This document shows, piece by piece, positions 21 through 57,600 of a DNA stretch of 64,000 nt. The notes under the pieces are model-generated. The model saw nothing but the letters and a program-made list of their open reading frames with translations. It did not search any database and had not been told where the DNA came from. The position numbers and the translations under genes are program-made. The stretch comes from a bacterium (GTDB lineage Bacteria > Patescibacteriota > Patescibacteriia > SG8-24): assembly GCA_021824285.1 (NCBI GenBank), contig JAKAKZ010000004.1, positions 225 through 64,224 on the forward strand, given 5' to 3'. Position 1 is the stretch's first letter; each line of letters opens with the position of its first letter.

Positions 21-1070
21 ATGGGCATGGTTACGCAAAAAACCCGCGGCGAGCTGATCCGGAATCTGTTTCCAGAGCTACCCGACTACCGCTTCCGCCA
101 GACGGAAGAGGCGGTTTTTCATGCCGGCTGGAAATCCTGGAACGACGTCTCGAACCTGCCGGGTGAGGCCCGCGCCAAATTGGCGGCCGAAGTCCCCTGG
201 ACGTCCTGGACCGCCGCGGACCTGCACCGCAGCGCGGCCGGCGACACCTTCAAGACCATCCTGGGACTGCCGGACGGCAACCGCATCGAAACCGTGCTCA
301 TGAAGAACAGCCGCGGCCAATGGACGGTCTGCGTCTCCTCGCAGGTCGGCTGCGCCATGAAGTGCGCCTTCTGCGCCACCGGTACCATGGGGCTGCTCCG
401 CAACCTCACGTCCGACGAAATCGTCGACCAGGTCCGCTACTGGCTGGATTTCGTCGCCTCACCGGAAGGGCCGGGCAGCCGCATCAGCAACATCGTTTTC
501 ATGGGCATGGGCGAGCCGCTGGCCAACTACGAGAACGTGAAGGAGTCCATCCGAACCGTCCTGAAGCGCACCGACATCGGCCTCACCCGCATTACCGTCT
601 CGACTTCCGGCATGCTGCCGCAACTCGAAGCGTTGCTCCTGGACCAGGACTGGCCGGACGTGCGTCTGGCCGTCTCGCTCCACAGCGCGGACGCCAAGAC
701 CCGCGCACAGATCATGCCGAGCTCGTATGAAGGGTTCTTGGAGCGGCTGAAGAACTGGGCGCTGAAGTACCTGGCCGCGAAAGGCGGCGGGCGGCGGCAC
801 CTCACCTTCGAACACATCATGCTCGGCAACGTGAACGACTCGCCGGAGCACGCGGCGAAACTCGCTGATTTCGCCAAGTCCATCGGCGACGTGCGCGTGA
901 ACCTCATCCCCTACAACCGCACGGACGCCGGTTTCGCGGTCACGCCGGACGCGCGCATCCGCGCTTTCATGGACGTGCTGGAACGGAACGGCATCACGGT
1001 CACGCGCCGCAAGAGCCAGGGCGACGACATCGCCGCGGCCTGCGGTCAGCTGGTCGTCCGAAAAAGTTGA
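21..1070 (+). CDS. rlmN: 23S rRNA (adenine2503-C2)-methyltransferase RlmN, radical SAM
   Basis: 349 aa with the CxxxCxxC cluster (CAMKCAFC) and GMGEP motif typical of RlmN/Cfr. Ends in TGA. Confidence 0.9.
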   Translation: MGMVTQKTRGELIRNLFPELPDYRFRQTEEAVFHAGWKSWNDVSNLPGEARAKLAAEVPWTSWTAADLHRSAAGDTFKTILGLPDGNRIETVLMKNSRGQWTVCVSSQVGCAMKCAFCATGTMGLLRNLTSDEIVDQVRYWLDFVASPEGPGSRISNIVFMGMGEPLANYENVKESIRTVLKRTDIGLTRITVSTSGMLPQLEALLLDQDWPDVRLAVSLHSADAKTRAQIMPSSYEGFLERLKNWALKYLAAKGGGRRHLTFEHIMLGNVNDSPEHAAKLADFAKSIGDVRVNLIPYNRTDAGFAVTPDARIRAFMDVLERNGITVTRRKSQGDDIAAACGQLVVRKS

Positions 1071-1105
1071 TAGTTGAAAGTTTTAGCAGATAACTCTCAA
1101 CTTCC
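1066..1105. repeat. AT-rich inverted-repeat hairpin (gttgatagttgaaagtt ... aactctcaacttcc), an 'empty' copy of the flank structure of repeat family A
   Basis: The same IR arms flank the family-A cores at 24226-24366 and 25833-25975. Here the arms are separated only by ttagcagat. The element overlaps the rlmN stop. Confidence 0.5.
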
Positions 1106-2469: not shown

Positions 2470-2535
2470 TTTCCCGACTTAAAGTCGGGACCCCGCCCCG
2501 CATTAAACTAAGATGAAAGTGGCGGGGCCTCCAGG
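2470..2535. repeat. degenerate copy of dispersed two-hairpin element (family A)
   Basis: tttcccgac-ttaa-agtcggga followed by ccccgcc...ggcgggg. Same architecture as the copies at 24284, 25900, 41646 and 44066. Confidence 0.4.
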
Positions 2536-3037: not shown

Positions 3038-3670
3038 CTACCGTCCGAATTCCCGGAGCAGGCCGAGATCCACGAGCTGGGAGACCAGGCGGTCGTCGTA
3101 GAGGAACGAGTTCAGGCTCTCGGCCACGGACTTGCCATGGCCCAGCTCGATCATCAGCCGGCCCGTGTCCGCGCCGAGATGGCGGAACGACGAGAGCCGC
3201 GCGGCCAAAGTCGCGCCGCAGCCTTTCTGCAGGAGCCGCTGTGCCAGGGCGTCATGGTCGAGGCCGGTCAGGTAGTTGACGAGGCGAGGCACCACCTCCA
3301 CATCGCCGATGGTGATCAGCGCCTCCGCGGTGCGGAACCCGAGCCGACCGAAGGAGCCGACGTTGAGCTCGAATTCCTTGGCGAAGCCCAGGGCGACAAG
3401 GCGCAGGGCGACCTCCTCGTTCAGCCCGCTGAACCGGCCGAGACTGTCGATCACCTGACGCGGGTAGCCGAGATCGATGAGGCGCAGGGCCACGCGCGCG
3501 TCGAGCAGGCGAAAGCGGTGCAGGTTGTCGAGCACCGCATGCGTGCAGTACTCGGCGATGAACCGCAGTGCCGTCGCCGGATGCCTGTCGTCCGGCATCT
3601 CGTCCACAATCTTGAGATCGTGGTTGGCGAGGTAGTACGCGACCGCGTCTTCAGGATTCCAGTTGGGCAT
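3038..3670 (-). CDS. hypothetical repeat-containing protein (about 27-aa Leu/Arg-rich tandem repeats)
   Basis: ORF 3038..3715. The probable start is the internal Met giving MPNWNPED... Internal repeats of the form ALRLIDLGY.../ALRLVALGF.../AQRLLQKGC.../GRLMIELGH.../SQLVDLGLL... No known family recognised. Confidence 0.5.
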   Translation of the reverse strand: MPNWNPEDAVAYYLANHDLKIVDEMPDDRHPATALRFIAEYCTHAVLDNLHRFRLLDARVALRLIDLGYPRQVIDSLGRFSGLNEEVALRLVALGFAKEFELNVGSFGRLGFRTAEALITIGDVEVVPRLVNYLTGLDHDALAQRLLQKGCGATLAARLSSFRHLGADTGRLMIELGHGKSVAESLNSFLYDDRLVSQLVDLGLLREFGR

Positions 3671-7563: not shown

Positions 7564-8157
7564 CTACTTGATCTGGCCGGAAGTCAGCAGGCTGTTCACG
7601 AAGGCGTCGAGACGGTCGATGGCCTCGTCGAGCCGGCCGTCGCGGTTCACCACGACGAGCGACACCAGATCGGCGCGCTCCGTGACGAAACGCTCTTCGC
7701 GGGCCGCATTGCGGACGCGGCGCTCCAGGTCCTCCGGCGTGGTGCCCGGACGCTCCGAGAGGCGGCGCCGGATCTCGCGGATGTTGCCGGCGTCGACGAA
7801 GACGACGCGCGCCTCCGGCAGCACCCCCTTGATCGTCGCGGTGCCCTGCACGTCGACCACGCCGAAGACGATCGGATGGTCGATGCGCAAGCGCCGCAGA
7901 ACCTCGCGCGAAGAGCCGTAGAAGTGGGCGTGGACTTCCGCCCACTCCAGGAACTCGCCGCGGTCGCGGCGGGCCGTAAAATCCTCGGGCGTAGTGAAAT
8001 GGTAATCGCGCCCGCTGACCTCGCCGGGCCGTGGCGCCCGCGTGGTGGTGGTGATGAGGCGCGCCGCCGAAGGGTGGCGGCGCAGCATCTCGTCGACCAG
8101 AGTGGATTTTCCGGCGGCAGATGGGCCGGTGATGATGACGAAAGCGCCGAGTTGCAT
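7564..8157 (-). CDS. gmk: guanylate kinase
   Basis: 197 aa with P-loop GPSAAGKST and the guanylate kinase fold. Confidence 0.9.
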   Translation of the reverse strand: MQLGAFVIITGPSAAGKSTLVDEMLRRHPSAARLITTTTRAPRPGEVSGRDYHFTTPEDFTARRDRGEFLEWAEVHAHFYGSSREVLRRLRIDHPIVFGVVDVQGTATIKGVLPEARVVFVDAGNIREIRRRLSERPGTTPEDLERRVRNAAREERFVTERADLVSLVVVNRDGRLDEAIDRLDAFVNSLLTSGQIK

Positions 8158-24225: not shown

Positions 24226-24366
24226 AGTTGAGAGTTCGAAGTTGATAGTTGAAAGTTCCGAATCGCAGATGACTTTCAACTTTTCCCGCCTCTTTAGGCG
24301 GGACCCCGCCTTCTTTGACTAAAGATAGGGGGCGGGGCAACTACGAACTTTCAACTGCCCGACGGC
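24226..24366. repeat. composite dispersed repeat: AT-rich IR flanks plus a two-hairpin CCCCGCC core (family A)
   Basis: gttgagagtt..gttgatagttgaaagtt / actttcaact around the core tcccgcc-tcttta-ggcggga ccccgcc-(loop)-ggcgggg at 24284-24347. Near-identical to the 25833-25975 copy. Confidence 0.6.
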
Positions 24367-25825: not shown

Positions 25826-25832
25826 ATCGGCG

Positions 25833-25975
25833 GTTGAAAGTTGAGTGTTGGAAGTTGAGAGTTCCGGTCGATTGTTGAAAACAATAAACTTTTCACTTTT
25901 CCCGCCATTTGGGCGGGACCCCGCCTTCTTTAACTAAAGATAAGTGGCGGGGCAACCCTCAACTCTCAACTTCCC
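25833..25975. repeat. composite dispersed repeat (family A) immediately upstream of pheS
   Basis: gttgaaagttgagtgttggaagttgagagtt ... tcccgcc-atttg-ggcggga ccccgcc-ttctttaactaaagataagtg-gcgggg ... caaccctcaactctcaacttcc. Confidence 0.6.
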
Positions 25976-30429: not shown

Positions 30430-30506
30430 CGTGAAGGGTGGAGCGTGAAGGGTGAAGCTTGATGAATTTTCAACTCCACACTCCCAACTCCACACTCCAC
30501 ACTCCC
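30430..30506. repeat. family-B GT-rich / CA-rich repeat between lemA and htpX
   Basis: gtgaagggtggagcgtgaagggtgaag ... ctccacactcccaactccacactccacactccc. Confidence 0.55.
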
Positions 30507-39465: not shown

Positions 39466-41541
39466 TCATTCCAGATGGACCTTGTTCAGTGCGTTAGAGG
39501 ATAGTACCGCTTCCGCCGTCTTCTCCTGCTCACCTCCCAACATAGCCACGGCGGCCTTCACTTCCTGGATGAGCCGGGCATCACCGAGCGAGGCCACCCG
39601 GAATCCCGGAAACCCGGATTGCAGCTCGCCCAAAAGTTCGCCGGGGCCGCGCATGGCCAAATCCTTTTCTGCGAGATCAAAACCGTCCTGCAGCTCGACC
39701 ATGGCGCGCAGCCGTTCCTTTTCCGCCGCTTCGTCGGTGGACGGCAGCAGCAGGCAGTAGGACTGGTGCTCGCTGCGGCCCACGCGGCCGCGGAACTGGT
39801 GCAGCTGGGCCAGTCCGAAGCGCTCGGCTCCGGAGATGCACATCACAGTGGCGTTCGGCACGTCGATTCCGACCTCCACCACCGAAGTGGACACGAGAGC
39901 CATGATCTTCCTTTCCAGAAAATCGCGCATCACGGCCTCCTTCTCCGCCGCCGCCAGGCGGCCATGCAGCAGACCGACCCCAATGCCGGGCAGCTCCACC
40001 TTGGACAGCCGATCGAATTCCTCTTCCGCGGACACCGTCTCCACCGCCTCCGACTCCTCGATGAGCGGACAGACCACGAAGGCCTGCCGACCAGCGGCTA
40101 TCTGTTCCCGGATGAAATCATAGGCGTCGGTGCGGCGGCTGGCCGGCACGAGCCGCGTCAGGATCGGTTTACGGTCCTTGGGTTTCTGCCGGAGCAGGGA
40201 AAGGTCCAAATCGCCGAGGACCGTGAGCGCCAGTGAGCGCGGGATGGGCGTCGCGGTCATGGACAGCAGGTGCGGCTCCACGCCTGGTTCCGCGCCCTTC
40301 TCGCAGAGCAATTGCCGGGCCCGGACGCCGAAGCGGTGCTGCTCGTCCACGACCGCCAGCGCCAGACGGCGGAACCCGACGGCTTCCTCAATAAGCGCGT
40401 GGGTCCCAACCACGACCGGCACGCGGCCGGCCGCGATATCGTCCGCCAGTCGCGCGGCCTCGGCCTTGTTGGCGCAGGCGAGCTCCTTGCCGTCCGCGAA
40501 GCAGCGGCGATAGGCGTTGGTCCAAAGCGCCACGGAAACCGGCTGGCCGGCGAAGACCTTCTTGAGCGACTCGTAATGCTGCTTGGCCAGGATTTCGGTC
40601 GGGGCCATAAGCGCGCTCTGGCAGCCCGAAGCGGCCGCGTTAATCATGGCGATGGCCGCGACCACGGTCTTGCCACTGCCCACATCGCCGTCGAGCAGGC
40701 GGTTCATGGGTGCGGCCTTAGCCATGTCGAGCAGCGCCTCCCAAGCGGCGCGCCGCTGGTCGTCCGTGAGGCGGAACGGTAGTGCGGCCACAAGACGCCG
40801 GGTGACGGCCTCGTCGAACCGTACCGGAATCCCCTTTTTACCCTGCCGCAGTCGGCGCAACTCGGCCATGGACAGCTCCAGACGGAACAGCTCGTCGAAA
40901 CCGAGACGGCGGCGGGCCGCATCGCGTCCGTCATGTGTCGCCGGAAAATGTGCCTCACGCACCGCCTCCGCCAGGCTGACCAGGCCGAAACGCCGCCGGA
41001 CCTGCCCAGGCAGCGTCTCCTCCAACTCTGCGGCAAGCGGTTCGGCCGTGCGCACCAGGCGGCGCATCAGCGCCTGGCTGATGCCCTTAGGCAAGGAATA
41101 GACCGGGAGGAGCGGCGACAGGTAGCCGCGTTCGCTTGTCGTCGGCTCATGCAGCGGACTGATAAGCCGGAGCCCGAATTTAGAGGCAGTCACCTTGCCG
41201 GCCAACCTATAGGTCGAGCCGACGGTGAGCGACTTCTGCAGATACGGCTGGTTGAACCAGAGTGCCGTCAGTTTCCCGCTGTCGTCCTTGAGGACGGCCT
41301 CCGTGAGCGACATGCGCCGGCCCCAGGCCCGGCGGCTGCGGACCTTCTCCACTTCGGCGATGACCGTAACCTGCTCCCCCGCTCGCGCGTCGGCCAACTT
41401 CACGCAGCGGCTGAAATCCTCATAGCGGAACGGGAAATGGAAAAGCAGATCGCGCACGGTGCGGATTTCGATGGAGTTCAGGGCGGAAATGGCGCTGCGG
41501 CTTTTCGGGCTCAAGACCGAGACCGGGCTGGAGAGGTCCAT
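39466..41541 (-). CDS. recG: ATP-dependent DNA helicase RecG
   Basis: 691 aa with wedge domain, DVGSGKT Walker A, DEQHRFGV and helicase C motifs. Confidence 0.9.
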   Translation of the reverse strand: MDLSSPVSVLSPKSRSAISALNSIEIRTVRDLLFHFPFRYEDFSRCVKLADARAGEQVTVIAEVEKVRSRRAWGRRMSLTEAVLKDDSGKLTALWFNQPYLQKSLTVGSTYRLAGKVTASKFGLRLISPLHEPTTSERGYLSPLLPVYSLPKGISQALMRRLVRTAEPLAAELEETLPGQVRRRFGLVSLAEAVREAHFPATHDGRDAARRRLGFDELFRLELSMAELRRLRQGKKGIPVRFDEAVTRRLVAALPFRLTDDQRRAAWEALLDMAKAAPMNRLLDGDVGSGKTVVAAIAMINAAASGCQSALMAPTEILAKQHYESLKKVFAGQPVSVALWTNAYRRCFADGKELACANKAEAARLADDIAAGRVPVVVGTHALIEEAVGFRRLALAVVDEQHRFGVRARQLLCEKGAEPGVEPHLLSMTATPIPRSLALTVLGDLDLSLLRQKPKDRKPILTRLVPASRRTDAYDFIREQIAAGRQAFVVCPLIEESEAVETVSAEEEFDRLSKVELPGIGVGLLHGRLAAAEKEAVMRDFLERKIMALVSTSVVEVGIDVPNATVMCISGAERFGLAQLHQFRGRVGRSEHQSYCLLLPSTDEAAEKERLRAMVELQDGFDLAEKDLAMRGPGELLGELQSGFPGFRVASLGDARLIQEVKAAVAMLGGEQEKTAEAVLSSNALNKVHLE

Positions 41542-41571: not shown

Positions 41572-41625
41572 ATTTAGGCAAAAATCAATCAAACGAAAAA
41601 CACCGGTGTTCCCGGTGTTTTCCGA

Positions 41626-41724
41626 TGGTGCGCCCGGCACGATTCCCCCGCCACCCATCTTTAGTCAAAGAAGGCGGGGTCCCGCCAACGGCGGGAGAAC
41701 GTGCGACCTCATCCTCCGCAGGGG
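41626..41724 (-). pseudogene. duplicated 3' fragment of tRNA-Arg (anticodon arm to CCA) with a family-A element inserted in the T-loop
   Basis: Matches tRNA-Arg positions about 29-76 plus 45 nt of downstream flank including the terminator. The T-loop attc|gaa is split by the 52-nt ccccgcc...ggcggga element at 41646-41697. Confidence 0.5.
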
Positions 41725-41912
41725 TCAGGCGCGAGACACGCAGCGCCTGGCGGGCGGCAAAAGCCGCCCGGGCTTGTCGGTTCTGTTTTTTGACCGAGCC
41801 GAAGGCGAGAAATACGCGCACGGCCTGACCAATATGACACATCGGCTGGTGGGACGGCTCCAGGCGCATCCCTGCGAAAACAGAAAACACCGGTGTTCCC
41901 GGTGTCCTCCGA

Positions 41913-41990
41913 TGGTGCGCCCGGCACGATTCGAACGTGCGACCTCATCCTCCGCAGGGATGCGCTCTATCCAAACTGAGCTACGGGCGC
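41913..41990 (-). tRNA. tRNA-Arg (anticodon read as GCG)
   Basis: Cloverleaf: acceptor GCGCCCG/CGGGCGC, D-arm GCTC-AGTTTGGATA-GAGC, anticodon stem CATCC/GGATG with loop CTGCGGA, T-arm GCACG-TTCGAAT-CGTGC, encoded CCA. A terminator hairpin follows. Confidence 0.7.
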
Positions 41991-43600: not shown

Positions 43601-43826
43601 ACAGCCGCTTTTGACCCCCTTTCGGGGGTCTTTTTTATAGATTAGGCCTTCACAAAGGGCGTCAGATGTATTAGGATACCGCTTGCCGAATGGAGGGTTG
43701 CGCCGAATGGGTCGCCGTGAGACATCGAACGGCGACGGGCGGCAAAAGACGCCCTGGCTTCCCGGCTCATTTTTTTGACCGAGGCGGAGCCGAGACCTAT
43801 AGGTTCTTTTGACCAAACTAACGCAT

Positions 43827-43915
43827 GGAGGGTTGCGCCGAATGGTAAGGCAACAGTTTGCTAAACTGTGACCTCGAAAGGGGTCTTATAGGTTCGATTC
43901 CTATACCCTCCGCCA
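43827..43915 (+). tRNA. tRNA-Ser (anticodon GCT), class II with long variable arm
   Basis: Acceptor GGAGGGT/ACCCTCC, anticodon stem ACAGT/ACTGT with loop TTGCTAA, variable arm GACCTCGAAAGGGGTC, T-arm ATAGG-TTCGATT-CCTAT, encoded CCA. The D-arm is slightly irregular in my hand fold. Confidence 0.7.
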
Positions 43916-43950: not shown

Positions 43951-44049
43951 GTTGTCAGACTGGCTCACGTTCCAGCTAACCCGCCTGATTTTCGGATCAT
44001 GACTACTCCCCTGTCCGCCCACTCGGCCACCCATGTTTACTTTTAAAGC

Positions 44050-44148
44050 GGAGGGGGTGAGATTCCCCCGCCACCCATCTCTAGTCAGAGAAGGCGGGGT
44101 CCCGCCCCAAAGGCGGGAGAACTCACGGACCCTTGCGGGTCAACAGTT
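44050..44148 (-). pseudogene. duplicated 3' fragment of tRNA-Ser(TGA) with a family-A element inserted in the T-loop
   Basis: gagattc|[ccccgcc...ggcggga at 44066-44120]|gaactcacggacccttgcgggtcaacagtt. The insertion point in the T-loop is the same as in the tRNA-Arg fragment. Confidence 0.5.
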
Positions 44149-44164
44149 TGGCCGCCTGACGACT

Positions 44165-44230
44165 TTCCGGCGGAGGGGGTGAGATTTGAACTCACGGTGC
44201 CTTTCGGCACGGCAGTTTTCAAGACTGCTG
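44165..44230 (-). pseudogene. second tRNA-Ser-like 3' fragment (anticodon arm, variable arm, T-arm, acceptor 3' strand), sequence-variant paralog
   Basis: Reverse complement reads GCAGT-CTTGAAA-ACTGC CGTGCCGAAAGGCACC GTGAG-TTCAAAT-CTCAC CCCCTCC. No matching 5' acceptor strand upstream. Confidence 0.45.
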
Positions 44231-44349
44231 CCTTGTTCGGCTCGACAATAATCTGAAGGTCTCGCCGAACACCAGGGCAGCCAATGCTGCCCGCAGACGC
44301 TGCGTCAACTCGCGTCCGCCCACTCGGCCACCCATGTTTACTTTTAAAG

Positions 44350-44434
44350 CGGAGGGGGTGAGATTCGAACTCACGGACCCTTGCGGGTCAACAGTTTTCA
44401 AGACTGTCCTCTTAAACCGCTCGAGCACCCCTCC
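44350..44434 (-). tRNA. tRNA-Ser (anticodon TGA), class II
   Basis: GGAGGGG-TG-CTC-GAGCGGTTTAA-GAG-G-ACAGT-CTTGAAA-ACTGT-TGACCCGCAAGGGTCC-GTGAG-TTCGAAT-CTCAC-CCCCTCC-G. CCA is not encoded. Confidence 0.75.
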
Positions 44435-45901: not shown

Positions 45902-47797
45902 TCAGGTCTTCATTTCCTTGGCCCGTTGGGCGGCCTCAAACTCCTTCTTGGCCTGCTCGATTTCCAGTAGCTGCTGCGGGTTCGTGGTGACGACCTGGTC
46001 CTCGGCATAGGAGGCCACGACCTTGATGGCCGCGTGCTTCATGCCGGCGAAGAATATGCCCTCGCCCACCCCGCCCTCAAGCAACAGGTATTTCTCCCCC
46101 TCGGTCAGCATGAAGGTCTTGGCGATGTTGTCGATAGCCGCCGGCGACTGCTTCAGAAGCAGCTGCATGGCGGAGTTGGTCACGATGGCCTGGCCGTAAG
46201 GCGAGCGCAGGAAGTCGTTGACGTCCTGGGTGATGGTCGTCACGCCGAGATAGTATTTGCGGCAGCGCTTCACGAGCGCGAAGATAAACTTGGCGGAGTC
46301 CTCGTGCTGCATGAGCCACCAGGCCTCATCAATCACCAGGATGCGTTTCTTGCGCTCGGAGCGGACCACGTTCCAGATGTAGTTGACGATGGCGTAGACC
46401 GCGAGCGGGCGCAGCTCGTCCTCCAGGTCACGGACCGAGAAGACGACGAGGAGGTTCTGCATGGCCACGGTGGTCGGCGAGTTGAACAGGCCGGAGAACG
46501 TGCCCTCGGTGAACTTCTTGAGCTTGATGACGATGTCCTTCGTGCCTTCCATTCCCTCCAGAACCTCAATGAAGTCCTGCATGATCGGCGGCTCGACGCG
46601 GGCCAGGTCGGCGTCCGGCGTGATGTCCTTCTTGGCGTAGGTTTCGAGCAGGGCGCGGTCCAGCACGGAGTCCTCTTGCGGCGTGATCGTGCCGAGCATG
46701 ATGCGCAGCAGGCCCTTTACCGTGATGACCGCGCTGCGGATGATATCCTCGACCGAAACCTCCTCCCCCACCGGCCGCGGCAGGTCGAACGGGTTGATCT
46801 TGGCGTCGGAGGCCAACGAGATGTTGATGTAGGTCCCGCCGACCGCGTCGGACAGGTGTTTGTATTCCATTTCCGGGTCGATGACGATGACCTCGGTGCC
46901 CATCATGAGCGAGCGCAGGATCTCCAGCTTCACGGTGTAGGATTTGCCCGCGCCGGAAGTGGCGAACACGATATAATTCGCGTTCTGCATGGAGAACCGG
47001 TCGAACAGGATCAGACTGTTGTTGTGGCGGTTGATGCCGAAAAGGATGCCGTTGTCCGAGGTCAGGTCCGCCGAGATGAACGGAAACGAGGAGGCGCACG
47101 GCGACGAGTTCATGTTGTAGGTGATCATGAGCTCGTCGTTGCCGAGCGGAATCGTGGAATTGAATCCCTGCTCCGCGGTGTAGAAAACGCGCTTGGTGTA
47201 GATCAGCTTGCCGCCGAAAATGGACTCAACGTCCTCGCTCAGCTTGTCGAGGGCCTTCTTGTCCTTGGCGTAGACCGTGACGTAGAGGGCAAACTGGAAG
47301 AAGTGCTCCGTGCCCTGGGTCAGGCTGTCGCGGAGGTCCTCGACGTCGCGCAGGGCCTGCTCGGAAATCGGGTCGCGCGGCTTGCCCTTCTCGGCATCTG
47401 AAAGGATGGTCGCCTCGAGCACGCCGGCTTTCTTCTTGAGCTGTTTCAGGATGACGGGCGCCTTCACCGGATAGAAGAACATGGCCACGTCCAGCGGGTA
47501 GTTCATGTTAATCACCGGCGAGAACCAGCCCAGCGAGATGTAGCGGGGATATGTGACCACGAAGATGGTGCGCAGGAAGGTCTCGCCGAGCTGGACGAGC
47601 GTCGGGTCGACTTTCATGCCCGCCGGCGCGATGAGGTCACGAATGGAGACGACGCCCTTGCGGTAGACGCGCTCCTCCTCCAGGAGCTCGCGCTCGCGCG
47701 AGATCTTTTCGGTCTCCTGCCGCTTCTTCACCTCTGCCGCCGTGTCCTTCTTCGGAGGCGGCGCGACAGCTCCTAATTGTGCGGGATTGAAGGCCAT
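45902..47797 (-). CDS. virB4: VirB4/TrbE-family T4SS ATPase, C-terminal 631 aa (Gram-positive PrgJ/TcpF type)
   Basis: Walker A FATSGAGKSYTV, Walker B RILVIDEAWWLM, and the conserved GETFLRTIFVVTYPRYI block. Confidence 0.85.
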   Translation of the reverse strand: MAFNPAQLGAVAPPPKKDTAAEVKKRQETEKISRERELLEEERVYRKGVVSIRDLIAPAGMKVDPTLVQLGETFLRTIFVVTYPRYISLGWFSPVINMNYPLDVAMFFYPVKAPVILKQLKKKAGVLEATILSDAEKGKPRDPISEQALRDVEDLRDSLTQGTEHFFQFALYVTVYAKDKKALDKLSEDVESIFGGKLIYTKRVFYTAEQGFNSTIPLGNDELMITYNMNSSPCASSFPFISADLTSDNGILFGINRHNNSLILFDRFSMQNANYIVFATSGAGKSYTVKLEILRSLMMGTEVIVIDPEMEYKHLSDAVGGTYINISLASDAKINPFDLPRPVGEEVSVEDIIRSAVITVKGLLRIMLGTITPQEDSVLDRALLETYAKKDITPDADLARVEPPIMQDFIEVLEGMEGTKDIVIKLKKFTEGTFSGLFNSPTTVAMQNLLVVFSVRDLEDELRPLAVYAIVNYIWNVVRSERKKRILVIDEAWWLMQHEDSAKFIFALVKRCRKYYLGVTTITQDVNDFLRSPYGQAIVTNSAMQLLLKQSPAAIDNIAKTFMLTEGEKYLLLEGGVGEGIFFAGMKHAAIKVVASYAEDQVVTTNPQQLLEIEQAKKEFEAAQRAKEMKT

Positions 47798-51135: not shown

Positions 51136-54100
51136 CTAGCGACCGAGCTTCCGTTCGATGGCGTCGAGCAGGCGGGTGACTTGGGACTTGTCCGATTGGG
51201 ATGAATCCTTGAGCTTGTCGACCAGACCCTCGAGCGCCGAGGTCTGATCAGCGCCGGCATCGTTGATCGCCTCAATCAGCTTGTCGAAATTCTCGGGGGT
51301 GGGCCGGACACTGACATCATCCAGCGCATCTTTCACGGCTCCAGAAACGGATTCGGCGACGCCGGAGAAGGCCCGCTCGATCTCCTTCTTGTCGATCCAG
51401 TCGCGGCCGCCGCGACCGCCCGACGAATCAGAACCGTAGGACCTTGGCGCTTCCGTCGGCCGGGCACCCGGACCGCCCATCTCTTTGAGCCGCGCGCTGG
51501 CGGCCTTCAGGTCTTCAGTGGCTTGCCGCAAGGCTTCGGTTAGTGCTTCTAGTGTCTGCGGATTGGCACCGCCAGTCTTGGCTTTGTCATATTCCTGCTG
51601 GGCCTGCTGGGCCTTATCACCGGCCTTCTTCACCACATCCTGCTGCATACCCGCCTCGGTGGCGTCGAACTTGGGCATCTTGTAGCCGCGCCGGGCAAGA
51701 ATCTCCTCGATCTTTCCGATATTGTCGGCGGCTTCCTGACGCTCCTTATCGATCCGTTCCAGATCGCGTTTCTTCTGAAGTTCACCGCCGTTATAGTCGA
51801 AACTCGGCGTCGCCTGGATGCTGTCGCGCTCCGCGCCGAGCGAGAGGACTTTCGACTTCGCCTCGTCAGCATTCTTGAAGGCGTCCTGCGTTTCGCGCTC
51901 GACGCGCTTACGGTCCTTGACCCCGGACTCCCCGCCTTTCTCGGACACGATCTGCATCACCGGATTATTGATGGAGCGGCTCAAGTCGCGGTTGGCCTCG
52001 GCCCAGCCGCCTTTGATGGCGTCGGTTACCGCTTTGAGAAGCGCCGACTCGTTGGCCGATGCGGTGCCGCTCGCGGACTTCTCGGCCAAGCCGAGCAGGG
52101 CACCGCCTTTCATGCCGTCGATCAGCGCCTGCATGGCCTCCGTCGGCTCCCCGTCCTTGGTCAAGGACGATGCGTCAATCTTGGAAAGGGCCTCCGGGCC
52201 GTTGGACTTCACGAATTCCTGAAACGCAGCCTTGCCGAATTCGCTGCCGAACTGGCCTCCGGCGCCAAGGTCGAAGGCCTTGGCCGCACCGGCGGCATCT
52301 TCAGCCGTGCGGGCCACGGCCTGCCGCGCGTGCAGCGATTCCTCGGGGTGCTCGGCTATGTACTTCTCGTTCTCCTCGCGGTAGGCCTTTTTCTGCTTGC
52401 CTTCCAGCTTGGATTCGACGCGGTCGGCGTCATCCCGGAGGGCCACGTCATTGGCGTATTTGCGGATCTGCGCCTCGGTAAAGTCCTTGGGCTGCTGTTT
52501 GCCCTCACGCACCTCGCGGGCCATCTTGGAAGAGAGCTCCTGCAGCTTGTCCTCGAGAGTCTCCCCTTCTTTCAGGGCTGCCGGATCAAACGCCTCATCC
52601 GGGAAGTTCTTCTTGGCTGCCTCAACCGCGTCATCGACGGTTTTCTTGTCGGCGCCAGCTTCCTTCATGCGGCGGATGACCTCATGCGCGCCGCCGGCGT
52701 CATGGACTTTGGCGTTGCGCTTCTCCAGGGCCTGCTTGAGCGCGGCCACGCGTTCCACCTCGGTGAATTCCGCGGCGCGGCCGGTGAGGATGGCCTCGAT
52801 GCTGTCTTTGCTGAGCTCCTTCTGGGCCTTGGCGTAGATGCCGGCCTGACCTTCCTTGCCGGTCTGCTGAAGCTGACGACCGATGCGCCGGCCTTCAGCT
52901 GCGGCCTCTTGGCCGGATTTCACGATGCCGGCGCCGAGACGGCCGCCGGTGACGCCCTGGACAGCGCGGCCGGCTGCCTGACGCAGGCCGCCACGGAGCA
53001 ACGGCGTGACCCCCTCGCGGGCCTTACCGATTTTCTCGGTGTACTGCGCCGTAGTCAGGGCGATGCGCTCCTTGTAGCGGTCATCGCCGGCCTTCATCAT
53101 GGCGCCGACGGCACCGCGCGCGCCTTCCACGCGCTGACGCAGACCGGTCCGCTTGTATATCGCGCCGAGGGCTCCGCCGACGACGGCACCAGGCGCGAGC
53201 TTCTTGGCCCCCGGCAGGCCGCCGCCGAAGCCGCCGCCGCTAAGCTGCTGCGCGAAATCCACGCCCAGATACATGATGGCCAGCGCCATGATGAAACTGA
53301 GCAACGAATCCATTTTCATGAAGTTCGTCCGGAAGACAGCGTCCGCTCCCGATTCCGCATTGAACTGCAGCTGCTTGACGGTGGCCAACGACAGCCAGAG
53401 GAAAAAAGCCAGCACCGGACCGGTGAGGATCTGGGACTGGAGGTTGGACCACCACTTGCCATAGTAGGACTGCGTAGCCTTGAAGGGCATGCCGCGCATG
53501 GCGAAGGCCAGAGGCGAAAAGATGACCACGCCCCAAAGAACGACGATGCGCTTGAGGATGAAGAGCGTCATGATGAGGATGACGCCGCAGGCCGCGAGCA
53601 GGAACAGGCAGGTCGCGAAATAGGTCAGGAACATCGTAAAGGTAGTCTGGGCAGCGGAGAGAGTCAGTCCGGTGCTGTCCGGGCTCATGACGTTCATCTG
53701 CGTGGTGTTCAGCGACGTGATGAGGTTCTGTGCGGCCGCGCCCTTGAAGCCGTTCACGAAAGTCAGCATGACCACCTGACCGATATCGATCAGCACACCG
53801 ACGAAAGTCCGCGAAAAATTCACGAGAATCGCCATGATCAGCAGACGCGAGAGCTTCTTCCCCTTATAGCTGTATTCGTCCATGCCGAGAATCGTCGCGA
53901 ATGCCATCACAAGCATGCTGACCACGATGAGCATGTTGGCCATGTCACGCACGACGAGCCAGCCGGCGGTGACGACGGGATTGTTCACGAAGCTGTTGTA
54001 CTGGATGAAGAAAATCAGCAGTTCGATAAGCAGCGACAGGATCTGGCCGATGGCGAAGGCCAAGGCCTCGAAAACCCAGTAGATGAAGCTCTGGATGAAA

Positions 54101-54384
54101 CCCTGCTCTGTCTGCGCCGGCGGCTTTTTTTCATCGGCGGCGGTATTCGAGGCCGGGGGTGTCGTGGCCGATCCTTGACCTGATCCGCCAGCGGTCTGTG
54201 CGAGCTGGACCGTGCGCACCGCGGACAGGTGGTTCCCGGCGGCCAGTGCCGGACGGGCAAAGTGCGGCAGGACCGAAATCAAAACGCCAAAAACCGCCAC
54301 AGCGGCGATCATCCGCAATGCAGCGTGGCCCGAGGCGCGATGCCGGTTCTGATGGCGCGTGGCTTCGGGTTGGAAAAACAGCAT
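51136..54384 (-). CDS. VirB6/TrbL-like polytopic membrane protein with about 650-aa charged coiled-coil C-terminal extension
   Basis: 1082 aa. The N-terminal 420 aa carry a signal-like segment plus 7-8 TM helices in the TrbL/VirB6 pattern. The C-terminal half is Lys/Glu/Ala-rich. Confidence 0.6.
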   Translation of the reverse strand: MLFFQPEATRHQNRHRASGHAALRMIAAVAVFGVLISVLPHFARPALAAGNHLSAVRTVQLAQTAGGSGQGSATTPPASNTAADEKKPPAQTEQGFIQSFIYWVFEALAFAIGQILSLLIELLIFFIQYNSFVNNPVVTAGWLVVRDMANMLIVVSMLVMAFATILGMDEYSYKGKKLSRLLIMAILVNFSRTFVGVLIDIGQVVMLTFVNGFKGAAAQNLITSLNTTQMNVMSPDSTGLTLSAAQTTFTMFLTYFATCLFLLAACGVILIMTLFILKRIVVLWGVVIFSPLAFAMRGMPFKATQSYYGKWWSNLQSQILTGPVLAFFLWLSLATVKQLQFNAESGADAVFRTNFMKMDSLLSFIMALAIMYLGVDFAQQLSGGGFGGGLPGAKKLAPGAVVGGALGAIYKRTGLRQRVEGARGAVGAMMKAGDDRYKERIALTTAQYTEKIGKAREGVTPLLRGGLRQAAGRAVQGVTGGRLGAGIVKSGQEAAAEGRRIGRQLQQTGKEGQAGIYAKAQKELSKDSIEAILTGRAAEFTEVERVAALKQALEKRNAKVHDAGGAHEVIRRMKEAGADKKTVDDAVEAAKKNFPDEAFDPAALKEGETLEDKLQELSSKMAREVREGKQQPKDFTEAQIRKYANDVALRDDADRVESKLEGKQKKAYREENEKYIAEHPEESLHARQAVARTAEDAAGAAKAFDLGAGGQFGSEFGKAAFQEFVKSNGPEALSKIDASSLTKDGEPTEAMQALIDGMKGGALLGLAEKSASGTASANESALLKAVTDAIKGGWAEANRDLSRSINNPVMQIVSEKGGESGVKDRKRVERETQDAFKNADEAKSKVLSLGAERDSIQATPSFDYNGGELQKKRDLERIDKERQEAADNIGKIEEILARRGYKMPKFDATEAGMQQDVVKKAGDKAQQAQQEYDKAKTGGANPQTLEALTEALRQATEDLKAASARLKEMGGPGARPTEAPRSYGSDSSGGRGGRDWIDKKEIERAFSGVAESVSGAVKDALDDVSVRPTPENFDKLIEAINDAGADQTSALEGLVDKLKDSSQSDKSQVTRLLDAIERKLGR

Positions 54385-54626: not shown

Positions 54627-57600
54627 TTAAGGTTTGACGACGATTTCTCCGGCGAACGTGTCCCAGGCCGTGTTGTAGCTGTCGCAGACGCCGCCGCCGG
54701 CGTTGGTTCCGGTATCCGGTCCGACGCAGAGCCCGTTCGGGTTGGCGACCGTCTTGTTGCCGGCGGAATCCAGCAGCAAGCCGCTGCAGGAACCGCTGCA
54801 CACGCCCCAATAATCCGTGAACTGGACGCGCGGCTTGAAGTGACACATGGAGCCGTCCTGGCACGGATACTTGTTGCCGTCGCAGGCCGGGAAGGTGGAG
54901 AGGTCGGAAGCCGTGCAGGTGTAGAGGATGGATTCGCGGAAGTACCGCGTGACACAGGACTCCGGCGTCTTGCCCCACTCGGTCGTGCCGGCGCAGATTT
55001 CCGTCGGGGCGGCACCAGAGGTGGCCGGCTTGATCACGCCGCGCTGATTCTTGTAGAGGCCCTTGGTCTCCACGTAGTCGGCGCTCACGATATTGGGATT
55101 TTTGTAAGTCGCGCCGTTGGCGTCGAAGCGCTTCTTGACGAGCGGCATGTGGTCCTTATCCGCGTAGCCGTAATAGGTGATGTTAGCCAAGTAGGAGCCG
55201 CCGCCGGCCGTATTGCCCACCTGGCCGCTCACGAAGCCGTCGACGGTCATCGCATTGGTCCCATCCTCTTCGCAGGCCCAATCGTTGACCGACGGATAGC
55301 AGCGCTGGCGCGTCGTGGCGGTAGAGCCCGAACCGATGATTTCCGGCGCAGTCAGGGCGGCGGCGACTTTCGGCTGGCTGTTCGCGCCGGCATCGGCCAT
55401 GACCGCAGTCATGCCCCAACCGGTGCCGGACGACAGACCGTAGGCCGTGCCGGTAAGTCCGTAGCGGCCATAGGACTGCACGAACATCTTCTGGAGCTCC
55501 GCTTGGGTATAAGTGTTGCCGGCGGCGGCGAAACCGACGTCGAACCGCTTGACCGGAGGATTGGTTCCCATCGGGTCGGTCTTCACGAAGCCCTTATTGT
55601 TGTTGTTACCGGCGCCGCCGCGCAGGGCCGACCAGAGCGGCAGACCGGAGGTGTACGGTGCGTCGCTGCCGAAGACACCGTTTGCCGCCGGCGTGGCCGG
55701 GAACACGTGCCCGTAGGGGGCGATGTCCTGGGAAGTCTTATTGTCGGCATCCTCCGGATTGTAGATATCTACCGTAACTCCATAAGGGATGCCCAAGTCG
55801 TTGGCCAGCTTCATCTTGAACTGGTTGGTCTTGACGATGGCCGGGGTGTTGGTCGAGGAGCTGCCGCCCAAATCCGTGTATTCGCGGCACTGCTCGCGGA
55901 GATAGACGGTAACAGTGCCCTCGCGGTTCACGGTCACGCTGTGGTTCCGATCAAGAATTCCGGTGCCGGACGCAAAGATGTCGTGACCGACGCACCAGAG
56001 ACTGCCGATGCTGCTTAGGGTGCCGTTGTCCCAGTTGGCCTGCGCATACATGCAGCCCTTGTCCTTGTCGATGGCGTCAGAGGCCCCGGTGGTGTTCGCC
56101 TGATCGCCGCACTTAAAGCCAGTGGCGTCATAATGCGGCGCGCAGAACGGACTGATGCCGCTACTGGTCCACTCGCCGGTAGACAGGAATTCCGTAGCTG
56201 GCGGCTGCGGCGGGTCCGCGCTCCCCTTCCAGCCAACCTCGAATTTCCAGCCGTTCGATGGCGTCAGCCAGAAATCAGTTATGGCGTTATCGGTAAAGTC
56301 GCGGCTGTAATGCTTAACCGAAATTTTGATGGCCGCGACATCATTGATGCTCAAGCCCACGGAACTGACATCAGAATTGTGGACGTCTTTTGTCGTCCAA
56401 TTGGCCGCAAGCCGCTTTTCGCCCCAAATCCAGGCTGACCAGAACATGTCGTTCCACAACCATGATGGAGGGGCACCGCCAGGATTGTTCTCCAGTTCAT
56501 ACAGGCCGACCTGATACTCATCGGTACACTGATAGTCAGGCGAATTGCTTGTGTAGGCGTCAATACCGCCCGCGAGCATACCGATGGTGCATCCGACAAG
56601 CGGAACCGTGGCGCATGCAATCGCCATTTCAGACGCGATTCTTGCCCAGTTAGGGCAATTCCTAACGGTTGTAGACCAATGATCGGTCCAGATGATGTTT
56701 GAATACTGCCCGGTCGGCCAGCCCTTGGACGCGTACTTGCCCGGCACGTTGACCTTATCGGAGCAGTAGAGCAGCTTGTCGACTCCGGCATCGATGGCCG
56801 GATCGAAACCGGCTTCCGGATACTGGTTATAGATGTCCGGCTGGCCGGAGAGCTGGTCCACCGGGAGCCACTGCAGGCAATGGTACTGGTCCGGCGTGCC
56901 GTTGATGCGCGTGCCGTAGTCCTTGTCGATGCAGATGCCGGTCCAGCCGGTGGCGTTCCGGGCCTTGGTCTTGGCGGAGCAGGAGCCGGTGCTCGCGTCC
57001 GCGCCGGTCGCGGCGCATGACGCGTTGCTCGTGCAGGGCTGTCCGAGTTTGGTGGCGTCGCCCATGGTGCAGACGCTGTTATCCATGGCGGTGCCGACCG
57101 GCTTGAAGACCGAGAAGCCGGGACCGTAATCGGCGCGGCTGTAGGAGCAGTCGCAGGCGTTGTTCAGGCCGGACGAATCGCTGTCCAAGCAGAGATTGGC
57201 GCTCTTGAAATTGGAGATCGGCTGGCTCCGGTTGGAGTAGGTGCCGCCCAAAAGCACAGTCTTGCCGTAGGGCGAGTCGGATTCCGGATAGCCGCGGCAC
57301 ATCATGGAAGCGCCGGCGCTCCGGGTGTCGGCCTTCATGGCCGGACCGCCGAAGAGGTCGAAGGCACAGACGCCGTTCTTGGCCTGGGCGTTGGATTTGA
57401 TGCAGCGGCCGTGGTTCTTGTTCGGATCGGGATCGTCGGTGATGACGCACTGGCTGTCGTTGGTGCAGGTCGTGATTATGCCGCCGACGTTGGAGTCGCG
57501 GACGATCGCGGCAACGTAATCCGGACTGCTGTCCTTGTCCGTGAGCGACAGCAGGGCCTCCGGCGGATAGGCGTTCGGGACGGTGTAGCCGGAAAATTCC

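What the first reader, a model, noticed from the sequence alone, without database searches (positions are those of the whole stretch)
24226..24366. Dispersed two-hairpin element (family A) with AT-rich inverted-repeat flanks, at least 6 copies in 64 kb
The core TCCCGCC-loop-GGCGGGA followed by CCCCGCC-(20-nt loop ctttgactaaagata-like)-GGCGGGG occurs at 24284-24347, 25900-25953, 41646-41697 and 44066-44120. A degenerate copy lies at 2470-2535. At 24226 and 25833 the core is bracketed by AT-rich arms (gttgagagtt...gttgaaagtt / aactctcaact), which is unusual in a 65%-GC genome. At 1066-1105 the arms occur without the core, directly at the rlmN stop. The copies sit at gene ends, in a 5' UTR (pheS) and inside tRNA T-loops. 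Candidates are a MITE/REP-like mobile repeat, a structured terminator or RNA stability element, or the footprint of a homing element.
Basis: seen in the sequence. Interest (0 to 1): 0.55.

Follow-up and report, generated by a model that had tools for sequence, protein, structure and literature searches.

The report
Mobile double-hairpin repeat targeting tRNA loops
This is a roughly 52-base repeat made of two GC-rich hairpins, common in uncultivated ultra-small bacteria, that inserts without duplicating its target and turns up again and again inside broken spare copies of tRNA genes sitting next to the working gene.

Summary
The core is real. A covariance model finds exactly five copies in the window: four strong and one degenerate. 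Chance expectation is 0.02. The "AT-rich arms" are not part of it. They are a separate hairpin made of heptad repeats (AGTTGAN)n, and the core is inserted into that hairpin's C/A-rich strand at TTT|CAA.

The core, which I call E, has the form TCCCGCC-loop-GGCGGGA-CCCCGCC-loop-GGCGGGG. It belongs to a large family found in Patescibacteria (CPR), Omnitrophota and related MAGs. The window itself comes from a relative of Ca. Uhrbacteria. No Rfam family matches E, and it has no hits on viral contigs.

E inserts precisely, with no target-site duplication, at TTY|CAA-like sites. It also nests inside its own loop. It is present at one orthologous site and absent at the same site in a relative.

At least 30% of copies lie in the D-arm, anticodon loop or T-loop of a tRNA sequence. 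None lies in a sole complete tRNA. The host is always a truncated copy beside an intact gene, as with tRNA-Arg and tRNA-Ser in the window.

The best reading is a non-autonomous, REP-like mobile DNA element. No transposase was identified. How the tRNA duplications arise is unexplained, and so is the apparent allele turnover. It appears to be a new variant of a known kind.

The parts
24284..24337 (+). E copy (double hairpin). It lies in the gap between a 121-aa ORF and pheT, antisense to those genes, inserted at CTTT|CAAC in the C/A-rich arm of a heptad-repeat hairpin.
   Evidence: 66.8 bits; DNA fold -21.5 kcal/mol, z -6.5
25900..25952 (+). E copy in the rseP|pheS gap, antisense to the genes, at CTTT|CAAC in a heptad-repeat arm.
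   Evidence: (71.1 bits)
41646..41696 (-). E copy inserted between C56 and G57 of the T-loop of a truncated tRNA-Arg(gcg) duplicate.
   Evidence: D5, D7; 73.7 bits
44066..44118 (-). E copy inserted between C56 and G57 of the T-loop of a truncated tRNA-Ser(tga) duplicate. Its loop-2 stem carries a compensatory change (TCTCT/AGAGA).
   Evidence: D2, D4, D6; 70.5 bits
2472..2527 (+). Degenerate E copy 6 nt after the nusG stop, sense to the gene. Hairpin 1 has a compensated stem (TCCCGAC/GTCGGGA).
   Evidence: (42.3 bits)
41591..41723 (-). Truncated duplicate of tRNA-Arg (anticodon loop to 3' end, plus about 35 nt of trailer) that hosts E.
   Evidence: (D5 93%, D7 100%)
41913..41990 (-). Intact tRNA-Arg(gcg), the functional neighbour.
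44013..44149 (-). Truncated duplicate of tRNA-Ser(tga) (position 38 to 3' end, plus 35 nt of trailer) that hosts E.
   Evidence: (D2, D4 100%)
44349..44434 (-). Intact tRNA-Ser(tga), the functional neighbour.
24226..24357 (.). Heptad-repeat (AGTTGAN)n arm hairpin that serves as host/target for E. It is not part of E.
   Evidence: composite fold z -8.9
25832..25974 (.). Second heptad-repeat arm hairpin hosting E.
1064..1103 (.). Heptad-repeat arm hairpin without E (an empty host), overlapping the stop codon of the rlmN-like gene.
   Evidence: no E

Best explanation
E is a short (48-77 nt) non-autonomous mobile DNA repeat made of two adjacent 7-bp GC hairpins (TCCCGCC/GGCGGGA and CCCCGCC/GGCGGGG) with variable loops. 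It is REP-like but lacks the REP tag sequences.

Shown: E occurs in hundreds of places in CPR/Patescibacteria, Omnitrophota and related MAGs. It inserts precisely, with no target duplication, at sites resembling 5'-TTY|CAA-3' on its own strand. Favoured places are the D-arm (12|13), anticodon loop (35|36) and T-loop (55|56 or 56|57) of tRNA sequences, the C/A-rich arms of intergenic repeat hairpins, and loop 2 of other E copies.

Inferred: an unidentified enzyme moves it in trans by recognising the invariant stems. The most likely candidate is a single-strand (HUH-type) transposase of the IS200/IS605-RAYT or IS91 kind, because those enzymes use terminal hairpins, make no target duplication and read a short target next to one end.

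Inferred: insertion into a working tRNA gene is lethal, so only insertions in redundant copies survive. That would explain why every tRNA-borne E sits in a truncated copy beside an intact gene. Whether E causes those duplications, merely marks them, or arrives together with them is not resolved.
For: Real and non-random. Stable fold: (z -4.9 to -6.5).

Family size and hosts: at least 120 metagenome loci and 108 genome loci, named carriers being Omnitrophota, Patescibacteria and 'Planctomycetia' MAGs. The window's pheS is 80% identical to a Ca. Uhrbacteria protein.

Precise insertion without duplication: in-silico excision restores contiguous tRNA sequence.

Target logo from 137 distinct copies: -2 T 66%, -1 T/C 70%, +1 C 61%, +2 A 74%, +3 A 52%.

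DNA-level targeting: 8 of 41 tRNA-borne copies are antisense to the tRNA yet still have TTN|NAN on E's own strand.

Mobility: nested E-in-E three deep in L036 and tandem arrays in L055; pseudo-tRNAs carrying 2-3 insertions in L167 and L076. At the orthologous site upstream of pheT the arm hairpin is filled in the window and empty in L242/L243, while at rseP|pheS E sits in a different arm and strand in the two species. Relatives at 72-73% pheS identity have gaps of only 1-57 nt.

tRNA enrichment: 41/148 by matching of both flanks, 44/141 by BLAST, and 30/141 junctions spanned by a tRNA profile against 0/141 control positions.

Never in a sole complete tRNA: 0/148.

Compensated stem variants.
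Against: No transposase or integrase was found near any copy I inspected (window; L022, L038, L135). No ORF-carrying parent element was found.

All sampled strains of the window organism are identical at these loci, so no recent movement is visible.

At an orthologous tRNA-Val locus in four species whose flanks are only 64-68% identical, E is in the same place with 27-28 of 28 stem bases intact while the loops have diverged. That fits long residence under constraint as well as, or better than, a purely selfish and rapidly turning-over element.

The hairpins abut the element ends directly, whereas IS200/IS605 ends have spacers and guide sequences. The target logo is weak.

The stems were fixed by the search pattern, so their apparent universality is partly due to how the copies were found.
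Confidence: 0.68

Rival explanations
1. E is a domesticated or primary functional structure: an RNA or DNA hairpin module bound by a conserved host protein. It might act in processing or stabilising tRNA precursors and operon transcripts, or as a DNA-binding site. On this view the 'pseudo-tRNA + E' leaders and trailers are maintained by selection rather than being junk.
For: At the tRNA-Val and tRNA-Leu loci the arrangement is conserved between species whose flanks are 64-68% identical. Between L034 and L027, identity falls in steps: intact tRNA 100%, E stems 27/28, pseudo-tRNA part about 86%, E loops and spacer about 70%. The pseudo-half of tRNA-Leu differs at only 3 of 35 positions between L008 and L069, whereas the functional 5' halves differ at 9 of 35, and the pseudo-half keeps a TTGAAY-N17-TATAAT promoter. 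The stem sequences are the same across phyla. Copies lie at gene ends and in operon gaps.
Against: E occurs in both orientations relative to transcription (3 sense, 2 antisense in the window). It occurs at many different tRNA positions and in many tRNA species, nests within itself, forms tandem arrays, and is present or absent at orthologous sites. No U-tract follows it, so it is not an intrinsic terminator. No Rfam family matches. Stem invariance is inflated because the search pattern required it.
Confidence: 0.17
2. E is the folded recombination site of miniature integrative modules. A small DNA circle carrying E plus a piece of tRNA (and sometimes a promoter or trailer) integrates into the matching tRNA gene by site-specific, attC- or CTX-like single-strand recombination. 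The gene is rebuilt, the old part is displaced, and repeated events produce arrays and allele turnover.
For: E lies exactly at the boundary between tRNA-homologous and unrelated sequence. The truncated copy runs from that point to the mature 5' or 3' end of the tRNA. Arrays of units occur next to the intact gene (L055, L064, L159). The truncated copy is often a different allele from the intact neighbour, and that allele is the working one in another species. Other hairpin families occupy the same kind of boundary. A circularised E would form a dumbbell with a 14-bp stem (sequence logic).
Against: No recombinase gene is nearby and the 'elements' are only about 90-300 nt. E orientation is not tied to whether the fragment lies upstream or downstream of the intact gene. 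Many copies have no tRNA context at all. Where alleles differ, the intact tRNA is wholly of one type, acceptor stem included, which a crossover inside the tRNA would not give. In the window the duplicates include 35 nt of native trailer at 93-100% identity, which points to local duplication.
Confidence: 0.12
3. E is an intron-like or RNA-level insertion in tRNA that is removed from the transcript.
For: It sits in the D-arm, anticodon loop and T-loop, places where archaeal non-canonical introns are found. Its two helices would bring its ends together.
Against: 0 of 148 copies lie in a sole complete tRNA. The 4 genuinely reconstituted tRNAs (L007, L064, L084, L199) each have an intact twin next door; the fifth (L028) is a spurious call. 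8 of 41 are antisense to the tRNA. Many copies lie outside tRNAs. No bulge-helix-bulge or group I core can be drawn.
Confidence: 0.02

Closest known systems
REP/BIME/REPIN elements mobilised by RAYT (TnpA-REP) transposases
   Same: Both are short GC-rich extragenic hairpin repeats in high copy, often found as doublets and at gene ends. REPs can be inserted inside larger palindromes (PMC3733652), can persist for very long periods (PMC8049555 abstract), and make no target duplication.
   Different: E has no GTAG or CGTC tag. Its two hairpins are head-to-tail with no spacer, an arrangement rare or absent among REP dimers. It is found across phyla in CPR and Omnitrophota. It shows a strong preference for tRNA loops. 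No flanked RAYT gene was seen.
IS200/IS605-family palindrome-associated elements (PATEs) and, for the target, IS91-family rolling-circle elements
   Same: Both have a hairpin at each end, no terminal inverted repeats in the usual sense, no target duplication, and an orientation fixed by a short asymmetric target. Read on the opposite strand, the E target is NTTG|/NTTC|, which resembles my recollection of IS91's CTTG/GTTC target.
   Different: E's hairpins are terminal rather than subterminal and no guide sequence is evident. The target logo is weak. No parent IS was found. The comparison rests on general knowledge and was not tested here.
Mitochondrial double-hairpin elements (DHEs), repetitive hairpin-forming elements and GC clusters
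   Same: Both consist of two adjacent GC-rich hairpins. Both are dispersed in intergenic regions and inside structural RNA genes, show no flanking duplication, have presence/absence differences between related species, and have an unknown mobility mechanism (PMC10085805, PMC2800124).
   Different: DHEs are found in fungal, chytrid and sponge mitochondria, not bacteria. Sequence relatedness was not examined. They are not reported to associate with truncated tRNA duplicates.
Partial tRNA duplications at attachment sites of tRNA-integrating elements
   Same: Both give a direct repeat of a tRNA segment running from the anticodon loop or T-loop to the 3' end, beside an intact gene, and tandem accretion can occur.
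   Different: Here the 'island' between the repeats is only 20-300 nt and has no integrase. The repeat is interrupted by E. 5'-side duplications are equally common. D-arm sites are also used.

Membership tests
REP/BIME (RAYT-associated) | Conserved GTAG (or CGTC) tetranucleotide tag at one end of the palindrome | tested here: not met
   E begins with TCCCGCC and ends with GGCGGGG. No tag appears in the flank logo. Tag definition taken from PMC3733652.
REP/BIME (RAYT-associated) | RAYT gene flanked by the repeats (REPtron) | not testable with these tools
   No transposase-like ORF was seen near E in the window, L022, L038 or L135. Whole genomes of the carriers could not be searched.
REP/BIME (RAYT-associated) | Short extragenic palindromic repeat in high copy | tested here: met
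   5 copies in 64 kb, all intergenic. Hundreds of copies in public data.
Classical MITE (DDE-transposon derivative) | Target-site duplication flanking terminal inverted repeats | tested here: not met
   Excising E restores contiguous tRNA sequence with no duplicated bases. The AT-rich 'arms' are an independent hairpin that exists empty.
IS200/IS605 PATE | Hairpins at both ends, no TIR or TSD, insertion next to a fixed 4-5 nt target | tested here: inconclusive
   Hairpins and the absence of a TSD are met. The target is only a weak TTY|CAA logo. No cognate IS was found.
tRNA intron (group I or bulge-helix-bulge type) | Interrupts the only functional copy of a tRNA gene and is removed from the RNA | tested here: not met
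   0/148 in a sole complete tRNA. 8/41 are antisense.
Intrinsic terminator | GC hairpin followed directly by a U-tract on the transcribed strand | tested here: not met
   The 3' flanks are CAA/GAA/AAA on E's strand and A-rich on the opposite strand. At 2472 a separate canonical terminator follows at about 2560-2600.
Any Rfam family | Match to a curated covariance model | tested here: not met
   Nothing matches E at the gathering threshold or at E<=10.
Integrative-element att site in a tRNA gene | tRNA 3'-segment repeats bracketing an island that encodes an integrase | tested here: not met
   The repeats are present, but only about 154-200 nt of non-coding sequence lies between them.
Mitochondrial double-hairpin elements | Two adjacent GC-rich hairpins, dispersed, no flanking duplication | tested here: met
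   The form matches. This is a likeness of form only; homology was not tested.

The most novel reading that the evidence does not exclude
Double-hairpin elements of this kind, together with the sibling hairpin families seen at the same boundaries, may be the active ends of a so-far undescribed class of tRNA-gene-targeting mobile modules in CPR and Omnitrophota. These modules would enter a tRNA loop and keep the host alive by bringing or provoking a replacement copy of the gene. The result would be a 'conveyor belt' of displaced, hairpin-capped tRNA fragments and a turnover of tRNA alleles between species.
Probability: 0.2. Interest if true: 0.85.

Novelty: new variant of a known kind. Interest (0 to 1): 0.62.

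Why it matters
CPR and Omnitrophota have tiny genomes that are thought to carry little repetitive DNA. Here an untagged hairpin repeat shared across these phyla recurs at the most conserved positions of tRNA genes and is always paired with a spare gene copy.

If E is a parasite, it shows a target choice (tRNA loops) and a survival filter not described for bacterial REP-like repeats. If it comes with gene replacement, it would be a new route for tRNA allele exchange between uncultivated lineages.

There are also practical consequences. These repeats break metagenome assemblies: contigs end inside them. They also create tRNA-like fragments that can confuse annotation; one fragment in the window passes Rfam's tRNA threshold.

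Tried and rejected
- A loop-specific pattern scan of the species-representative genomes found nothing. A looser stem pattern was needed.
- A viral-contig scan found nothing.
- Rfam searches at gathering and permissive thresholds found no family for E.
- I looked for strain-level empty sites through exact-protein look-ups. All samples of the window organism are identical, and several contigs simply end inside E.
- I looked for a transposase or integrase next to E-dense regions (L022, L038, L135, window) and saw none.
- I considered resemblance to the hammerhead core (CUGAUGA in loop 2 of some copies), C/D-box or kink-turn motifs. I rejected these on inspection because the required helices are absent and the window's own loops lack the motif.
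- I looked for a guide-target match between loop sequence and flank. The same subfamily uses different targets (L167), so I found none.
- I considered a dependence of the closing base pairs (T..A / C..G) on orientation. This was uninformative because the search pattern fixed them.
- Literature searches for a described tRNA-loop-targeting hairpin repeat in bacteria found none in the held library. They returned only the mitochondrial DHE and REP literature.

Full report
**Observation.** The motif is present at all the stated coordinates. CCCCGCC-N10-30-GGCGGGG occurs 5 times and TCCCGCC-N2-12-GGCGGGA occurs 4 times, each against 0.02 expected. I built a covariance model from 28 family members and ran it over the whole window with filters off. 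It finds exactly five copies: 41646-41696(-), 25900-25952(+), 44066-44118(-), 24284-24337(+), and a degenerate copy at 2472-2527(+). Nothing else scores above 15 bits. Each copy folds as two adjacent hairpins far more stably than shuffled sequence (z -4.9 to -6.5). I call the element E: T-CCCGCC-loop1-GGCGGG-A followed directly by C-CCCGCC-loop2-GGCGGG-G. Loop 1 is free to vary (GTTG, TTTGG, ATTTG, TCTTTAG). Loop 2 is conserved and contains a small stem (TCTTT/AAAGA), which becomes TCTCT/AGAGA in the 44066 copy. Across the family this inner stem is only moderately supported: 84% of positions are paired and one pair covaries.

**The arms are a different thing.** AGTTGARAGTT occurs 14 times against 0.79 expected; 13 of those sit at three loci, and the fourteenth is an isolated single-mismatch hit at 30465. 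The arms are tandem heptads (AGTTGAN)n followed by their complement, which form a long hairpin. At 24226-24357 the two arms pair almost perfectly once E is removed, and E sits inside the C/A-rich arm at CTTT|CAAC. The same is true at 25832-25974. The hairpin at 1064-1103 has no E.

Comparison with relatives settles the relationship. The window organism is a relative of Ca. Uhrbacteria: its pheS is 80% identical to a protein from an Uhrbacteria MAG, and the murI-rseP-pheS-(120 aa)-pheT gene order is conserved. In relatives at 72-73% pheS identity, the rseP|pheS and pheT-upstream gaps are 1-57 nt and contain no arms of this kind and no E. The 80% relative (L242/L243) has arm hairpins at both gaps, but they are built from a different repeat unit (GGGATTNA / TCAACCCC). 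In that relative the pheT-upstream hairpin is empty. The rseP|pheS hairpin holds an E variant in the other arm and strand compared with the window. So E is present or absent at orthologous sites, and it enters C/A-rich arms independently.

**The tRNA copies.** The two minus-strand copies lie in truncated duplicates of the neighbouring tRNA genes. For tRNA-Arg(gcg), the intact gene is at 41913-41990. A second copy of the segment from the anticodon loop to the 3' end, plus about 35 nt of trailer, lies at 41591-41723. E is inserted in it exactly between C56 and G57 of the T-loop (TTC|GAA). For tRNA-Ser(tga), the intact gene is at 44349-44434 and the same arrangement lies at 44013-44149.

**The family.** It found nothing on viral contigs. 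About 150 hits have the complete two-hairpin form. The rest are GC-rich coding sequence from actinomycetes and similar organisms, and these lack hairpin 1. Named carriers are Ca. Omnitrophota (many MAGs), Patescibacteria including Doudnabacteria and Saccharibacteria, MAGs labelled 'Planctomycetia/Planctomycetales', and one MAG labelled 'Ca. Binatia' that by pheS similarity and gene order is an Uhrbacteria-like CPR. GC content of the hosts ranges from 21% to 68%. Subfamilies differ in loop length and sequence (48-77 nt). Variants with compensated stems exist: TCCCGAC/GTCGGGA in the window, TGCCGCC/GGCGGCA, and TCCCCCGC/GCGGGGGA. No Rfam family matches.

**Where it inserts.** Flanks of 137 distinct copies give a target logo of T(45%) T(66%) Y(70%) | C(61%) A(74%) A(52%), with no duplicated bases. 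41 of 148 copies have both flanks matching an intact tRNA gene within a few hundred bases. The insertion points are D-arm 12|13 or 22|23, anticodon loop 35|36, and T-loop 55|56 or 56|57. A BLAST test gives 44/141. A tRNA profile spans the junction after in-silico excision in 30/141 cases, against 0/141 random control positions in the same loci. Eight of the 41 are antisense to the tRNA but still have the target on E's own strand. That argues for recognition of DNA rather than of tRNA transcripts.

Pseudo-tRNA copies can carry two or three insertions: L167 in the D-arm and T-loop, and L076 in the D-arm, anticodon loop and T-loop. E also inserts into loop 2 of other E copies at TTTG|ATG, nested three deep in L036. 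Units of [short stem][E][tRNA 3' end][spacer] form tandem arrays in L055, L064 and L159. When E is removed computationally, a complete tRNA is restored in only 5 of 148 cases. One of these (L028) is a spurious call, and the other four each have an intact tRNA of the same anticodon next door. No copy lies in a sole complete tRNA, which rules out an intron-like role.

**What is not explained.** The truncated copy usually runs from one mature end of the tRNA to a few bases beyond E, roughly to the end of the local stem. Of 79 tRNA fragments lying beside intact tRNAs, 41 abut E. Most of the rest abut other GC-rich hairpin or two-hairpin families. The window has one such family at 41724-41810 and 43711-43795.

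In the window the duplicates are recent local copies: 100% identity, or 93% in the trailer. Elsewhere the truncated copy is often a different allele from the intact neighbour. At an orthologous tRNA-Leu(CAA) locus the truncated and intact types are A/B, A/C and B/C in three species. At a tRNA-Val(CAC) locus they are X/Z, W/Z, Y/X and Y/Z in four species. The allele that is truncated in one species is the working one in another.

These loci have flanks only 64-68% identical, yet E is in the same place with 27-28 of 28 stem bases intact while its loops have diverged. This fits either long residence with constraint on the stems or repeated turnover at a hot spot. Because the search required intact stems, I cannot tell these apart.

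**Mechanism.** I favour a non-autonomous mobile DNA repeat moved in trans by an enzyme that recognises the stems. Terminal hairpins, no target duplication, an orientation set by a short asymmetric target, and entry into hairpin-prone DNA all point to a single-strand HUH transposase (IS200/IS605-RAYT-like or IS91-like). This is inference from general knowledge. That only redundant tRNA copies carry E is what purifying selection would leave. Whether the duplication precedes, accompanies or follows insertion is open.

The rivals are a selected structural module, and a folded recombination site of miniature tRNA-integrating modules. They keep about 0.17 and 0.12 of the probability.

**Comparison and novelty.** E is closest in kind to REP/BIME/REPIN repeats, and in form to mitochondrial double-hairpin elements. 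It lacks the GTAG/CGTC tag that defines the REP super-families, has a head-to-tail hairpin pair, and shows a tRNA-loop preference with paired truncated gene copies. I could not find such a combination described in the held literature. I rate it a new variant of a known kind.

Noticed in passing
window 1064-1103, 24226-24357, 25832-25974; L242 2749-2931 and 3992-4120; L244 4426-4484: Intergenic hairpins whose arms are tandem short repeats: G/T-rich, then the C/A-rich complement. The repeat unit is lineage-specific at orthologous operon gaps (AGTTGAN in the window, GGGATTNA in L242, GAGAGTC in L244). Two strains differ by one 24-nt repeat (L242 vs L243). The C/A-rich arm runs up to the start codons of pheS and pheT, where no Shine-Dalgarno sequence is evident. 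Function unknown.
   Followed up: partly
window 41724-41810 and 43711-43795: A second two-hairpin repeat ('family B', 83% identical between copies, with core GGGCGGCAAAAGNCGCCC) followed by a TTGACC-N17-TATAGG promoter-like stretch. One copy abuts the truncated tRNA-Arg. The other abuts a 24-nt duplicate of the 5' end of tRNA-Ser(gct) (43687-43710 vs 43822-43845).
   Followed up: partly
window 44170-44245 (-): A third, 5'-truncated tRNA-Ser(tga)-like fragment, 79% identical to the working gene, with a different anticodon stem and variable arm. It looks like an older or foreign allele. It reaches Rfam's tRNA gathering score (29.4 bits) and could be mis-annotated as a gene.
   Followed up: partly
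L209 about 1075-1110, L191 about 2260-2300 and 2530-2570, L055 about 7700-7740, L205 about 95-140, L147 about 2758-2810: Other GC-rich hairpin families (e.g. GGCCGGCCCGGAGCGA...GAGCGGAGGG) sit exactly at the internal boundary of tRNA fragments beside intact tRNAs. The phenomenon is therefore not specific to E.
   Followed up: no
L081 3063-3204: A c-di-GMP-I riboswitch match (39.4 bits, gathering score 35) stretched to 142 nt because an E copy (3083-3140) sits in the 5' strand of its first hairpin.
   Followed up: no
L044, L069, L177, L048, L080 (immediately after tRNA 3' ends): The motif TTCTGCTTCGCC (or TTTTGCTTCGCC) recurs directly after the CCA end of several different tRNAs and tRNA fragments in Omnitrophota-type contigs.
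   Followed up: no
L244 (GCA_035495855.1, DATJFD01): A MAG labelled 'Candidatus Binatia' has a pheS 73% identical to the window's and the same CPR-type gene order, and it carries many E copies. It is probably a mislabelled Uhrbacteria-like CPR genome.
   Followed up: partly
window 54627-63434 (-) and 51136-54384 (-): Two very large ORFs (2935 and 1082 aa) with no Pfam domain at E<=0.001, next to a TraG/VirB4-like ATPase (45902-47797).
   Followed up: no
window 39466-41541 (-): recG is one 691-aa gene here and in the ENA assembly, but is called as 72 + 615 aa in the NCBI MAG. This indicates a sequence or annotation difference between assemblies.
   Followed up: no
L239, L240, L234 and other short contigs: Independent assemblies of this organism end inside or right next to E, so the repeat fragments metagenome assemblies.
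   Followed up: no
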